From a virus: 64,000 bases of DNA. This document shows, one piece after another, positions 27,728 to 29,268 of this stretch; positions within the stretch are counted from its first letter, which is position 1; the number at the start of each line of letters is the position of its first letter. The stretch lies in IMG/VR virus record IMGVR_UViG_3300045988_075126, positions 64,001 through 128,000 of that record, one strand, 5' to 3'. The translations under genes were made by a program, and so were the position numbers. The notes under the pieces are model-generated. The model was given only the letters and a program-made list of their open reading frames with translations, was not told where the DNA came from and ran no database searches.

Positions 27728-28657
27728 ATGTCTAAGCAGACTGGTTTTTCATTCGCAAGTTCAAAGAAGTCATTAATTGAGACTATTGACGAAATAAAGA
27801 AGTCAAAGATGCCTCGCAACGAAAAGATTGTTGCATTGAAGGCTTGCGGTCTTCGTGAGAAAGAAATCTCCGATATGTTGAAGGTCTATGTACCTAGCGG
27901 CTCTACTTCAACGAGATTTGTTTATACATTCGGTGTTGAGATTGAATGTGTTCATGCCGAGCGCAATGCCTTGATAGAGGCAGGTCGTCAGAATGGTGTT
28001 GATATTCATTCTGAGGGTTATAACCACACCGATAATAAGAGCTATTTCAAGATTGTTAGTGATTCTTCTGTTGGTGGTGATGTTGACCCTAACGAGGTTG
28101 TTAGTCCGGTATTGAATGGCAATACAAATGGTATGGCAACTTTGAAGAAGGCTATTAAGTCTTTGGATGCTGTAGGTGCAAGAGTTAATTCTACTTGTGG
28201 TCTTCACGTTCATATTGGGGCAGCAAAGTTGACAGGTGAGCAGTATGTTAACGTTTTCAAGAATTATCAGAAACTTGAAAGATTGATTGATAGTTTCATG
28301 GCTCCTTCAAGAAGAGGTAATTGCCGTTGGGCAGCCAGCTTGCTTGACAAGGATTTCTCTAATTGCCACGGCAATTACGATATTAGACGTAATGTATTTC
28401 ATGGAGATAGATATTACAAGGTCAATGCAGAGAGCTATGCACGTCACAAGACTATCGAATTTCGCCAGCATCAAGGTTCAACCAATTATAAGAAGATTGA
28501 AATGTGGGTTAAGTTCTGTGCAAAGCTTGTCGGTTGGTCTCGCAACAATGTCTTCACTAGTGAGGTTATGAATATCGAAGATATACCTTTCTTGAATAAA
28601 GAAGAGAAGGCTTTCTTCCAGAGCCGTAAGGATGCATTTGCAGCCAATAATAATTAA
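27728..28657 (+). CDS. amidoligase (glutamine-synthetase-like, Amidoligase_2 family)
   Basis: FGVEIECV, CGLHVHIG, IEFRQHQGS signature blocks. Confidence 0.7.
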   Translation: MSKQTGFSFASSKKSLIETIDEIKKSKMPRNEKIVALKACGLREKEISDMLKVYVPSGSTSTRFVYTFGVEIECVHAERNALIEAGRQNGVDIHSEGYNHTDNKSYFKIVSDSSVGGDVDPNEVVSPVLNGNTNGMATLKKAIKSLDAVGARVNSTCGLHVHIGAAKLTGEQYVNVFKNYQKLERLIDSFMAPSRRGNCRWAASLLDKDFSNCHGNYDIRRNVFHGDRYYKVNAESYARHKTIEFRQHQGSTNYKKIEMWVKFCAKLVGWSRNNVFTSEVMNIEDIPFLNKEEKAFFQSRKDAFAANNN

Positions 28658-28734
28658 TTAATGTAGTCCTAGGGCTTTTACCCTAGGACACAAATAAACC
28701 AAAGTATTATTAAGAAAAAAGAAAGGGTAAAGAT

Positions 28735-29268
28735 ATGTGTGTTGTTATTGTATGTCCGAAAGGTGTTGCTTTGCCATCCGTAGATGAGCTGAAGGCTGCA
28801 TATATGAGAAATCCAGATGGTTGTGGGTTCGTGAGCGAGTCTGACCATTACAAGAGTTTGCATTTCTCTACATTTATCCGTAGATTGATGAAGCGAGATA
28901 TAAATGAAAATGTAATCATACATTTTAGATTTGCTACTCATGGTTCTGTTTGTGTCAAGAATTGCCATCCATTCTATAAGGCAGGTTATTGGTTTGCACA
29001 TAATGGAGTGCTCCCGATTTGCTCCGAGCATGATAAAACGGATAGTCAGATTTGCTTTGAGCGTTTCATTTATCCTACTATCAAGAAATATGGTTGGGGT
29101 TCTAATGAACATATGAAAGAAATGAATAAATGGACAGCTCATGGTTCTAAGTTTGCAATGTTGCATAATGGTGAGATTGTGAAGTCCGGTAAATTCATAG
29201 AGCGTGATGGACGGTTTTATTCTAATTTGAATCATTTGGGTTATATGCGAAATGTTATAAACTTTTAG
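28735..29268 (+). CDS. class-II (Ntn) glutamine amidotransferase
   Basis: N-terminal MC nucleophile, HFRFATHG, NCHPF, FAHNGV blocks. Confidence 0.75.
   Translation: MCVVIVCPKGVALPSVDELKAAYMRNPDGCGFVSESDHYKSLHFSTFIRRLMKRDINENVIIHFRFATHGSVCVKNCHPFYKAGYWFAHNGVLPICSEHDKTDSQICFERFIYPTIKKYGWGSNEHMKEMNKWTAHGSKFAMLHNGEIVKSGKFIERDGRFYSNLNHLGYMRNVINF

What the first reader, a model, noticed from the sequence alone, without database searches (positions are those of the whole stretch)
27728..29268. Amidoligase + Ntn glutamine amidotransferase pair between the tRNA cluster and the capsid module
ORF 27728..28657 carries GS-like Amidoligase_2 blocks (FGVEIECV, CGLHVHIG, IEFRQHQGS). ORF 28735..29268 is a class-II amidotransferase with an N-terminal Cys nucleophile (MC.., HFRFATHG, NCHPF, HNG). 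This gene pair has been predicted computationally in phages as a peptide or metabolite-ligating system. To my knowledge its substrate is still not established. Here it has its own promoter and leader (27589-27719) and terminator. It sits directly after tRNA-Glu and tRNA-Gln and directly before the scaffold, decoration and capsid genes. Candidate roles are glutamyl or amide tagging of virion proteins, modification of a nucleotide or DNA base, or an amino-acid/tRNA-linked reaction.
Basis: partly seen in the sequence, partly recalled or inferred. Interest (0 to 1): 0.65.

Follow-up and report, generated by a model that had tools for sequence, protein, structure and literature searches.

The report
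Phage amidoligase plus glutamine-amidohydrolase gene pair
A gut Bacteroidales phage carries a self-contained two-gene unit, an ATP-dependent amide-bond ligase and a small glutamine-type amidohydrolase. It belongs to a widespread phage gene pair that was predicted years ago and whose substrate is still unknown, and comparison with other phages shows no functional tie to the neighbouring tRNA or capsid genes.

Summary
ORF 27728-28657 is a clear Amidoligase_2 protein (Pfam E 2.4e-33). All GS/YbdK-type catalytic residues are invariant, and the predicted fold is GS-like. ORF 28735-29268 is a minimal, 177-aa class-II Ntn amidotransferase-like protein. Its Cys2, Arg65, Asn90-Gly91 and Asp103 are conserved or invariant, and the model (pLDDT 96) matches the GlmS, PurF and EgtC glutaminase domains.

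The two genes form their own transcription unit, with a Bacteroidetes-type promoter and terminators on both sides. In 84 loci from other genomes, the amidohydrolase lies directly downstream of the ligase in 63. Starting from the amidohydrolase, the ligase lies directly upstream in 77 of 78.

The rest of the neighbourhood varies. Nearby tRNAs differ in identity. Only one capsid lineage has the pair next to its capsid genes, and 20 of 21 phages with a related capsid gene lack it. No third enzyme is conserved.

In Firmicutes phages the partner is a gamma-glutamyl cyclotransferase instead. This favours a ligase that makes a gamma-glutamyl amide and a partner that cleaves one. The rival is a glutamine-fed two-subunit amidotransferase.

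This is a new member of a known, computationally predicted pair (Iyer et al. 2009), and the papers I could search report no experimental function. Interest is moderate to low.

The parts
27589..27620 (+). Bacteroidetes-type promoter (-33 TTG ... -7 TATCTTTG) of the pair. It belongs to a promoter sequence repeated across the window.
   Evidence: The sequence CTTGCATGTTTCAAAACTTATTTGTATCTTTG closely matches promoters ending at 20859, 41919, 5608(-), 62693(-), 58169(-) and 16372(-). In 44 of 77 other loci a TAnnTTTG motif lies within 260 nt upstream of the amidoligase gene.
27621..27727 (+). 5' leader of about 100 nt, predicted to be structured. Its 5' end pairs with the region just before the start codon.
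   Evidence: MFE -29.5 kcal/mol, z = -2.83 against shuffles. No Rfam family matches it. A leader of this length is seen only in the close relatives L085, L086 and L088.
27728..28657 (+). Amidoligase gene (309 aa). It encodes an N-terminal three-helix domain (about residues 16-53) and a GS/YbdK-like carboxylate-amine ligase core (residues 66-305).
   Evidence: Pfam PF12224 E 2.4e-33 and phrog_2443 E 1.4e-53. Invariant residues are G69, E71, E73, D112, S114, E123, G158, H160, H162, S194, R195, R228, Y229, N233, E244, H248, G250, K256 and R300. The AF2 model has pLDDT 92.1. Foldseek finds YbdK 1r8g at E 6e-5 and GS 8fbp.
28662..28692 (+). G+C-rich hairpin between the two genes, with no T run after it. 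It probably acts as a partial terminator or as an mRNA-stabilising stem-loop that sets the ratio of the two products.
   Evidence: -18.6 kcal/mol, z = -2.4. A hairpin of at least about 8 bp lies at the same place, with unrelated sequences, in about 25 of 41 loci whose intergenic gap is 30-160 nt.
28735..29268 (+). Gene for a minimal (177 aa) class-II Ntn amidotransferase-like amidohydrolase with an N-terminal Cys nucleophile.
   Evidence: Pfam GATase_4 E 7.9e-7. C2 is nearly invariant, and R65, N90, G91 and T102-D103-S104 are invariant. The AF2 model has pLDDT 96.3. Foldseek finds the GlmS glutaminase domain 1xff at E 2e-7 (TMq 0.66), PurF, and EgtC 4zfl at E 5e-4.
29300..29333 (+). Intrinsic-terminator-like hairpin with a T run that closes the two-gene unit before the scaffold and capsid genes.
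   Evidence: 15-pair stem followed by TTTCGTTATA.
27464..27491 (+). Upstream terminator that separates the 89-aa ORF and the tRNA cluster from the pair.
   Evidence: 12-pair stem followed by TTTTTATATA.

Best explanation
The two genes are an accessory, independently transcribed cassette of a temperate Bacteroidales gut phage, probably one that infects Segatella/Prevotella.

Gene 1 encodes a compact ATP-dependent carboxylate-amine ligase of the glutamine-synthetase/YbdK fold (Amidoligase_2). Gene 2 encodes a minimal Ntn (Cys1) amidohydrolase. Its pocket keeps every residue that class-II amidotransferases use to hold a glutamine or gamma-glutamyl group with a free alpha-amino and a free alpha-carboxylate.

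Most likely mechanism. The ligase phosphorylates a carboxylate, by analogy the gamma-carboxylate of L-glutamate, and joins it to an amine on an unknown small molecule or host component. The partner cleaves a gamma-glutamyl amide bond, either to remove or recycle that group or to release an amine or glutamate from a host gamma-glutamyl compound. This is the logic of EgtA/EgtC, PuuA/PuuD and PafA/Dop. The cassette acts on the host cell or its metabolites during infection, not on the phage's tRNAs or capsid.

What is shown: the family, fold and catalytic residues of both proteins; the tight pairing of the two genes; the separate transcription unit; and the variable surroundings. What is inferred: the gamma-glutamyl chemistry, the direction of each step, and the target.
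For: 1. Both enzymes look catalytically competent. The ExE, HxH and ExR residues plus the Arg residues are invariant in 45 ligases that share only 33-55% identity. Cys2, Arg65, Asn90-Gly91 and Asp103 are conserved or invariant in 30 amidohydrolases.
2. The ligase's nearest solved folds are YbdK, glutamine synthetases and gamma-glutamylmethylamide synthetase, with PafA/Dop weaker. From established knowledge, all of these activate a glutamate gamma-carboxylate.
3. The amidohydrolase's Pfam family is GATase_4, and EgtC is among its fold matches. EgtC is a stand-alone gamma-glutamyl amidohydrolase.
4. The pairing is very tight. The amidohydrolase lies directly downstream on the same strand in 63 of 84 loci. 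The ligase lies directly upstream in 77 of 78 evaluable amidohydrolase loci. The same pair occurs in Arthrobacter phage Ottawa.
5. In Firmicutes phages the partner is a gamma-glutamyl cyclotransferase: Bacillus phage 035JT001 and Clostridium clostridioforme prophages (PMC11318856). That enzyme also cleaves gamma-glutamyl amides and cannot supply ammonia.
6. No third enzyme is conserved next to the pair. Pfam scans of 98 window ORFs found no ATP-grasp, GGCT, 5-HMUDK, aGPT-Pplase or TET/JBP.
7. The pair is accessory. It sits in varied contexts: after a divergent HTH_3 regulator, after NinG, before terminase, or before scaffold. Of 21 viral contigs with a homologous capsid gene, only 1 carries it.
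8. It has its own promoter and terminators. An intercistronic hairpin recurs with unrelated sequences, which suggests unequal amounts of the two proteins rather than a fixed 1:1 complex.
Against: There is no biochemical evidence, and the substrate is unknown.

A ligase and a hydrolase for the same bond in one two-gene cassette would run a futile cycle unless a host step comes between them.

The amidohydrolase's best fold matches are true glutaminase domains (GlmS, PurF; E 2e-7), ahead of EgtC (E 5e-4).

In several loci the two genes overlap or are only 0-30 nt apart. That fits translational coupling and a complex.

TM-scores of the ligase model to solved structures are low (0.41-0.44), so inferring the substrate from fold neighbours is weak.

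No complex model could be computed.
Confidence: 0.42

Rival explanations
1. The pair is a two-subunit glutamine-dependent amidotransferase. The Ntn protein hydrolyses free glutamine and passes ammonia to the ligase. The ligase activates a carboxylate on an unknown substrate with ATP and converts it to a carboxamide. This is the logic of MurT/GatD or asparagine synthetase. A possible substrate is a cell-wall precursor carboxylate, as Iyer et al. 2009 suggested for phiEco32 according to PMC10580990.
For: The full glutamine-binding and catalytic set is invariant. The best fold matches are the GlmS and PurF glutaminase domains. The short amidohydrolase almost never occurs without the ligase (77 of 78). 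The genes are often nearly contiguous or overlapping (gaps from -9 to 30 nt in many loci). A separately encoded ligase and glutaminase from adjacent co-transcribed genes has a precedent in MurT/GatD (PMC3267633, abstract).
Against: In Firmicutes phages a gamma-glutamyl cyclotransferase takes the partner's place, and it cannot donate ammonia. In 13 loci a 75-aa protein is the partner instead. From my own knowledge, GS-fold ligases use free ammonium or amines directly, and none is known to have a glutaminase subunit. The recurrent intercistronic hairpin argues against strict 1:1 production.
Confidence: 0.3
2. The pair modifies virion proteins. The ligase would form a Glu-Lys isopeptide or add glutamate or an amide to the scaffold, decoration or capsid proteins encoded just downstream, in the manner of pupylation by PafA/Dop.
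For: In the window and in 17-21 other loci the pair lies immediately upstream of the scaffold, decoration and major capsid genes. PafA and Dop appear among the weak fold matches of the ligase (E 0.08-0.12).
Against: All loci with this arrangement share one capsid lineage (capsid protein 49-97% identical), so the gene order is probably inherited rather than functional. Of 21 viral contigs with a homologous capsid gene, 20 lack the pair. Elsewhere the pair sits among early or regulatory genes. A terminator and a different promoter separate it from the capsid operon. The amidohydrolase pocket keeps the Asp that binds a free alpha-amino group, which a protein-bound Gln or Glu lacks. No Pup-like tag gene is present.
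Confidence: 0.07
3. The pair modifies nucleic acid. It would be either one step in a DNA base hypermodification, such as amidating a carboxymethyl or glutamyl adduct, or a tRNA-linked transamidation such as Glu-tRNA(Gln) to Gln-tRNA(Gln).
For: Amidoligase and glutaminotransferase Pfam domains co-occur with thymidine-hypermodification genes in some viral contigs (PMC8989533). The window also encodes a Mom-family protein, three DNA methylases, ThyX and a DUF1599 protein. The ligase has an N-terminal three-helix, HTH-like domain. tRNA genes lie within 2.5 kb in 22 of 82 loci.
Against: Pfam scans of 98 window ORFs found no 5-HMUDK, aGPT-Pplase or TET/JBP. Mom is 11 kb away and is not within 10 kb of the pair in any other locus. 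The neighbouring tRNAs differ in identity (Val, Pro, Thr, Met and others); Glu and Gln occur together only in near-identical relatives. The N-terminal domain has no significant HTH match; the best is HTH_23 at E 0.007 in 2 of 45 members.
Confidence: 0.08

Closest known systems
Phage Amidoligase_2 plus GAT-II (class-II amidotransferase-like) gene neighbourhood, predicted by Iyer, Abhiman, Burroughs and Aravind 2009 (Mol Biosyst 5:1636). Examples are phiEco32, the LUZ24-like phages UFV-P2 and tf, OM43 phages and Arthrobacter phage Ottawa.
   Same: The two domain families are the same, they are adjacent on the same strand, they occur in a phage or prophage, and no function is established.
   Different: The amidohydrolase here is a minimal 177-aa protein, against 307 aa in Ottawa and 486 aa in UFV-P2. 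The ligase carries an extra N-terminal three-helix domain. The window has none of the ATP-grasp, COOH-NH2 ligase or gamma-glutamyl cyclotransferase genes that accompany the pair in LUZ24-like phages or Phage-ZRK32.
EgtA/EgtC of ergothioneine biosynthesis (a gamma-glutamylcysteine ligase and an Ntn gamma-glutamyl amidohydrolase)
   Same: A GS-superfamily ligase that makes a gamma-glutamyl amide works with a stand-alone class-II amidotransferase-like Ntn hydrolase that removes the glutamyl group. EgtC is a fold match at E 5e-4.
   Different: No EgtB or EgtD equivalents are present. Sequence identity to EgtC is only 13-16%. The ligase belongs to Amidoligase_2, not GCS2/EgtA.
YbdK / GCS2 carboxylate-amine ligases and glutamine synthetase
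   Same: They are the best fold matches (1r8g at E 6e-5; 8fbp) and share the same metal- and phosphate-binding residue pattern.
   Different: No sequence-level match to any PDB chain was found, even with a profile. The catalytic core is much smaller, about 240 aa. TM-scores are only 0.41-0.44.
MurT/GatD peptidoglycan amidotransferase
   Same: A separately encoded ATP-dependent ligase and a glutaminase are made from adjacent co-transcribed genes. This is the working model of the main rival explanation.
   Different: The folds are unrelated: a Mur-ligase and a class-I triad glutaminase, against a GS-like ligase and a class-II Ntn protein here.
PafA/Dop pupylation enzymes
   Same: They are GS-fold enzymes encoded together. 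One ligates a Glu gamma-carboxylate to an amine, and the other deamidates or cleaves.
   Different: Fold similarity is only weak (E about 0.1). There is no Pup-like gene. The partner here is an Ntn hydrolase, not a second GS-fold enzyme.

Membership tests
Pfam Amidoligase_2 (PF12224), GS-like carboxylate-amine ligases | Profile match above the curated cut-off over the whole domain | tested here: met
   116.5 bits against a cut-off of 22. Residues 66-268 cover profile positions 3-245 of 245.
Pfam Amidoligase_2 (PF12224), GS-like carboxylate-amine ligases | Conserved acidic, His and Arg residues for metal, ATP and acyl-phosphate chemistry (GxExE, GxHxH, ExRxH) | tested here: met
   E71, E73, E123, H160, H162, R195, R228, E244 and H248 are invariant, and R246 nearly so, in 45 sequences.
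Pfam Amidoligase_2 (PF12224), GS-like carboxylate-amine ligases | Glutamine-synthetase/GCS2-like fold | tested here: met
   The AF2 model (pLDDT 92.1) has YbdK, GS and GmaS as its top PDB matches at probability 1.00, but TM-scores are only 0.41-0.44.
Pfam Amidoligase_2 (PF12224), GS-like carboxylate-amine ligases | ATP-dependent amide-bond formation | not testable with these tools
   This needs an enzyme assay.
Class-II (Ntn) glutamine amidotransferase domain, GATase_4 / YafJ-EgtC type | Profile match above the curated cut-off | tested here: met
   28.7 bits against a cut-off of 23, but the match covers only residues 47-95. GATase_6, at 22.6 bits, is below its cut-off of 27.
Class-II (Ntn) glutamine amidotransferase domain, GATase_4 / YafJ-EgtC type | Cys directly after the initiator Met, which becomes the N-terminal nucleophile | tested here: met
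   The protein starts MCVV. C2 is present in 29 of 30 aligned homologues, and the exception is truncated at its N terminus.
Class-II (Ntn) glutamine amidotransferase domain, GATase_4 / YafJ-EgtC type | Arg for the glutamine alpha-carboxylate, Asn-Gly oxyanion hole, and Asp for the alpha-amino group | tested here: met
   R65, N90-G91 and T102-D103-S104 are invariant. Their equivalence to GlmS R73, N98-G99 and D123 is my inference from motif position.
Class-II (Ntn) glutamine amidotransferase domain, GATase_4 / YafJ-EgtC type | Four-layer alpha-beta-beta-alpha Ntn fold | tested here: met
   Foldseek finds 1xff (GlmS glutaminase domain) at E 2e-7 and TMq 0.66, plus PurF and EgtC.
Class-II (Ntn) glutamine amidotransferase domain, GATase_4 / YafJ-EgtC type | Full-length domain of about 230-270 residues, usually fused to a synthase domain | tested here: not met
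   The protein is 177 aa and stands alone. Homologues are 165-221 aa. TM normalised to the targets is 0.47-0.52. It is a minimal variant.
Phage Amidoligase_2 / GAT-II conserved neighbourhood (Iyer et al. 2009) | The two genes are adjacent and co-directional in phages or prophages across lineages | tested here: met
   63 of 84 loci, 77 of 78 from the amidohydrolase side, and Arthrobacter phage Ottawa gp65/66.
Phage Amidoligase_2 / GAT-II conserved neighbourhood (Iyer et al. 2009) | Further ligases (ATP-grasp, COOH-NH2 ligase) or a gamma-glutamyl cyclotransferase in the same cluster, as in LUZ24-like phages and Phage-ZRK32 | tested here: not met
   None was found among 98 window ORFs scanned with Pfam, and no such family is conserved in the 82 related loci.
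Thymidine-hypermodification gene clusters (Lee et al. 2021, PMC8989533) | 5-HMUDK kinase and aGPT-Pplase, with a dUMP hydroxymethylase or TET/JBP nearby | tested here: not met
   No such Pfam families were found in the window. Only ThyX is present, 7.4 kb upstream.
tRNA-dependent amidotransferase (GatCAB-like function) | Consistent association with tRNA-Gln or tRNA-Asn, or homology to GatA/B/D/E | tested here: not met
   There is no homology. The neighbouring tRNAs vary in identity (Val, Pro, Thr, Met, Lys and others), and no tRNA gene lies within 2.5 kb of the pair in 60 of 82 loci.
Known anti-phage defence systems (PADLOC) | Match to a defence-system protein model | tested here: not met
   Neither protein has a PADLOC hit.

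The most novel reading that the evidence does not exclude
The cassette is a host-takeover or counter-defence module. The ligase gamma-glutamylates, or otherwise caps, an amine on a host molecule, such as a polyamine, a cell-envelope precursor, an immune signalling molecule or a lysine on a host protein. The Ntn partner or its cyclotransferase replacement recycles or tunes that mark. This would give the first function to a family of about 7,800 protein clusters found in phages of Bacteroidota, Actinobacteria, Firmicutes and Proteobacteria, in crAss-like phages and in giant viruses. Relatives do sit in accessory islands with HicAB, an anti-CRISPR candidate and an AcrVA2-like gene.
Probability: 0.15. 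Interest if true: 0.75.

Novelty: new member of a known kind. Interest (0 to 1): 0.35.

Why it matters
The Amidoligase_2 family is very large: 7,838 clusters at 50% identity match at E <= 0.001. It is spread through phages of many phyla and into giant viruses. It has no solved structure detectable by sequence or profile, and the papers I could search report no experimentally established function.

This window does not change that picture. It does give a clean, minimal, two-gene version in a very abundant human-gut phage; one 90%-identity cluster holds 2,440 member sequences. The comparative data narrow the hypotheses: the tRNA and capsid links are not supported, and gamma-glutamyl amide chemistry is favoured.

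If the substrate were found, it would annotate thousands of phage genes and might reveal a new way in which phages alter host metabolites or proteins.

Tried and rejected
1. Sequence and profile searches of the ligase against PDB found nothing. Only fold search gave relatives.
2. The N-terminal three-helix domain as an HTH: Pfam gives only sub-threshold hits (EF-Ts_N at E 0.005-0.012, HTH_SB at 0.043, HTH_23 at 0.007 in 2 of 45 members). I left it as 'HTH-like, unproven'.
3. The leader as a riboswitch: no Rfam match at E <= 1.
4. Link to Mom: no Mom homologue lies within 10 kb of the pair in any of 82 other loci.
5. Link to tRNA-Glu/Gln: the neighbouring tRNAs vary in identity.
6. Link to the capsid module: the arrangement is confined to one capsid lineage, and 20 of 21 contigs with a related capsid gene lack the pair.
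7. Fusion proteins joining the two domains: none among the 10 longest ligase homologues.
8. Defence-system membership and NCBIfam naming: no PADLOC hit, and only far sub-threshold glmS and purF hits in NCBIfam.
9. A Pup-like tag: the 75-aa protein that replaces the amidohydrolase in a distant subfamily has no conserved C-terminal Gln, Glu or Gly-Gly.
10. 'Early' timing from the promoter class: the same promoter type precedes the recombination and helicase operons, but a similar one also precedes the operon that contains the tape-measure gene. I therefore do not claim a timing.
11. The Iyer et al. 2009 paper itself is not held in the library. Its content is cited second-hand or from memory.
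Full report
**What is there**

The window is a 38% G+C phage genome segment. It is 95% identical to an unannotated 'Bacteriophage sp.' record from human faeces (MT835576). It matches many IMG/VR gut viral contigs at 96-100% protein identity and a contig binned as Segatella copri at 97% (L086).

The segment encodes a Peptidase_S24 repressor-like protein, Rad52, NinG, a helicase, ThyX, RNase H, three DNA methylases, a Mom-family protein, a tape-measure protein and an HK97-type capsid module. 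I read it as a temperate Bacteroidales phage.

**The two genes**

- It matches Pfam Amidoligase_2 at E 2.4e-33 over the whole profile and phrog_2443 'amidoligase enzyme' at E 1.4e-53.
- In an alignment of 45 homologues at 33-55% identity, these residues are invariant: G69, E71, E73, D112, S114, E123, G158, H160, H162, S194, R195, R228, Y229, N233, E244, H248, G250, K256 and R300. This is the acidic/His/Arg pattern of glutamine-synthetase-type carboxylate-amine ligases.
- The AlphaFold model (pLDDT 92.1) has a small N-terminal three-helix bundle (helices 16-25, 30-39, 44-53) followed by the catalytic domain.
- Its best PDB fold matches are YbdK (1r8g, E 6e-5), glutamine synthetases and gamma-glutamylmethylamide synthetase, with PafA/Dop weaker. 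TM-scores are modest (0.41-0.44).
- No PDB chain is detectable by sequence or by profile.

ORF 28735-29268 (+) encodes 177 aa starting MCVV.
- It matches GATase_4 above the Pfam cut-off (28.7 bits against 23).
- In 30 homologues, C2 is nearly invariant, and G29, G31, R65, T68, G70, N76-F80, H89-N90-G91 and T102-D103-S104 are invariant. These are the nucleophile, the oxyanion hole, and the two residues that hold the alpha-carboxylate and alpha-amino group of glutamine in class-II amidotransferases. The residue equivalences are my inference from motif position.
- The model is very confident (pLDDT 96.3). It matches the glutaminase domains of GlmS (E 2e-7, TMq 0.66) and PurF, and the Ntn hydrolase EgtC (E 5e-4).
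- The protein is about 50-90 residues shorter than those domains, so it is a minimal version.

**The transcription unit**

- A terminator-like hairpin with a T run lies upstream at 27464-27491, after an 89-aa ORF. Another lies downstream at 29300-29333.
- The promoter at 27589-27620 has the Bacteroidetes -33/-7 form (TTG ... TATCTTTG). It is one copy of a promoter sequence repeated at least six more times in the window.
- A leader of about 100 nt follows and is predicted to fold (z = -2.8). It matches no Rfam family.
- Between the two genes lies a strong hairpin without a T run. A hairpin in the same position, but with unrelated sequence, occurs in about 25 of 41 other loci with a comparable gap. 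The structure is therefore probably functional, as a partial terminator or an mRNA stabiliser.
- The scaffold gene downstream has a different promoter that lacks the -33 TTTG.
- The pair is not directly after tRNA-Glu/Gln. tRNA-Tyr, a tRNA with an 8-nt anticodon loop, tRNA-Lys and the 89-aa ORF lie in between.

**Comparative genomics**

The ligase family is very large: 7,838 clusters at 50% identity match at E <= 0.001.

A scan of one genome per species returned 80 loci, nearly all in Bacteroidales.
- In 63 of 84 loci analysed, a homologue of the short amidohydrolase lies immediately downstream on the same strand, with gaps of -9 to 394 nt.
- Starting from diverged amidohydrolases in viral contigs, 77 of 78 evaluable copies have the ligase directly upstream.
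- In 13 distant loci (34-41% identity), the gene downstream of the ligase encodes a conserved protein of about 75 aa instead. These loci include Bacteroides conjugative elements and prophages. Porphyromonas gingivalis phages likewise have a small ORF directly after the ligase gene.

Everything else varies. The pair can follow a divergent HTH_3 regulator (33-38 loci), follow NinG, or precede WYL_2, PAPS reductase and terminase genes. It precedes the scaffold and capsid genes in 17-21 loci.
- The capsid-adjacent loci all share one capsid lineage (49-97% identity).
- Of 21 viral contigs carrying a capsid gene 40-53% identical to that of L134, only one has the pair.
- tRNA genes lie within 2.5 kb in 22 of 82 loci, but they are mostly Val, Pro, Thr or Met. 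Glu and Gln occur together only in near-identical relatives.
- Mom is not within 10 kb of the pair in any other locus.
- Pfam scans of 98 window ORFs found no ATP-grasp, gamma-glutamyl cyclotransferase, 5-HMUDK, aGPT-Pplase or TET/JBP.

The pair is therefore a mobile, self-sufficient, accessory cassette. Its position next to tRNAs and capsid genes in this phage is best explained by insertion at a module boundary.

**Cultured phages and the literature**

- Arthrobacter phage Ottawa has an adjacent 'carboxylate amine ligase' and a 'glutamine amidotransferase domain protein' among replication genes.
- Bacillus phage 035JT001 has an amidoligase and, 1.1 kb downstream, a gamma-glutamyl cyclotransferase.
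- Clostridium clostridioforme prophages also combine amidoligases with a gamma-glutamyl cyclotransferase (PMC11318856).
- LUZ24-like phages combine an amidoligase, a 486-aa amidotransferase, an ATP-grasp enzyme and a COOH-NH2 ligase (PMC3890496).
- The prediction goes back to Iyer et al. 2009. That paper is not held and is cited here through PMC10580990, PMC11318856 and PMC4431377.
- PMC10580990 states that the functions 'remain to be explored'. PMC8989533 notes co-occurrence with thymidine-hypermodification genes, 'functions not yet known'.
- Seven literature searches found no experimental assignment.

**Mechanism**

Shown: both proteins carry complete catalytic machinery, they are almost always encoded together, and they need no conserved third partner.

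Inferred: every solved relative of the ligase activates the gamma-carboxylate of glutamate. This is established knowledge for GS, YbdK/GCS2, GmaS and PafA. The partner's pocket is built for a glutamyl group with free alpha groups. In Firmicutes phages the partner is replaced by an enzyme whose only known chemistry is cleaving gamma-glutamyl amides.

The most economical reading is a gamma-glutamyl-amide 'make and break' pair acting on an unknown amine (confidence about 0.4). The main rival is a two-subunit glutamine-dependent amidotransferase that turns a carboxylate into a carboxamide (about 0.3). It is supported by the better fold match to true glutaminase domains and by the near-obligate pairing. 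Virion-protein tagging and DNA- or tRNA-linked roles remain possible, but the comparative data count against them (about 0.07-0.08 each).

**Verdict**

This is a new member of a known, computationally predicted phage gene pair. It is a minimal Bacteroidales version with a 177-aa amidohydrolase and an extra N-terminal domain on the ligase. It is not a new kind of system. Its interest lies in the long-standing open question of what this very widespread pair does. This locus alone does not make that question easier to test than the cultured-phage examples do.

Noticed in passing
window 26829-26903 (+): This tRNA has an 8-nt anticodon loop (CUUGGUAA). ARAGORN reports a four-base anticodon 'tggt', and Rfam scores it as a tRNA at 62.4 bits. 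The same odd tRNA is present in the near-identical relatives L085 and L086. It could be a quadruplet (ACCA) decoder or +1 frameshift suppressor, or a Thr/Pro tRNA with an insertion.
   Followed up: partly
window promoters ending at 20859(+), 41919(+), 27620(+), 5608(-), 16372(-), 58169(-), 62693(-): A promoter of about 32 nt (TTTGCATaTTTCAAAtATTcTTTGTATCTTTG), with an internal palindrome ATATTTCAAATAT, is repeated across the genome. Several copies also share downstream leader hairpins, for example GGTGAGAcaCACC, and the leaders after 20859 and 41919 are nearly identical for about 70 nt. This may be a common operator or an RNA control element.
   Followed up: partly
window 28662-28692 and the same position in about 25 related loci (e.g. 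L084, L088, L095, L098, L102, L104, L122): A G+C-rich hairpin sits just after the amidoligase stop codon and is conserved in position but not in sequence. It has no T run. It looks like a structural signal that sets the relative expression of the two genes.
   Followed up: partly
window 36104-40448 (+): A DNA-modification block holds a C5 cytosine methylase (36104-36946), two N6/N4 methylases (38118-38888, 38866-39588) and a Mom-family protein (39819-40448, PF25680 E 3.4e-35). A DUF1599 'nucleotide modification associated' protein lies at 52319-52861 (-), and ThyX at 19369-20295.
   Followed up: no
L143, L148, L151-L154, L156, L159-L164 (position +1 after the amidoligase); L169 4935-5177: A distant Amidoligase_2 subfamily (34-41% identity) is found in Bacteroides conjugative elements (next to a ParA/TraA-like gene) and in prophages. 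It is followed by a conserved protein of about 75 aa (motif ..DGG.ITA...EFV..LR..S.F......EYM..FA.R) instead of the amidohydrolase. This small protein has no Pfam, NCBIfam or PADLOC match. Porphyromonas gingivalis phages (L169) also have a small ORF directly after the ligase gene, which I did not compare with this family.
   Followed up: partly
L165 1742-6857: A more distant phage contig carries two Amidoligase_2 genes close to an R2K-type ATP-grasp gene (R2K_2/R2K_3) and an HNH endonuclease. Another (L167) has a 579-aa amidoligase near an AcrVA2-like gene. These are accessory or conflict-type neighbourhoods.
   Followed up: no
window 7701-14234 (+): A 2,177-aa tape-measure protein gene lies about 17 kb upstream of the capsid genes. 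Antirepressor, ThyX, RNase H, many small ORFs and the tRNA cluster sit in between, which is an unusually scattered layout for the structural genes.
   Followed up: no
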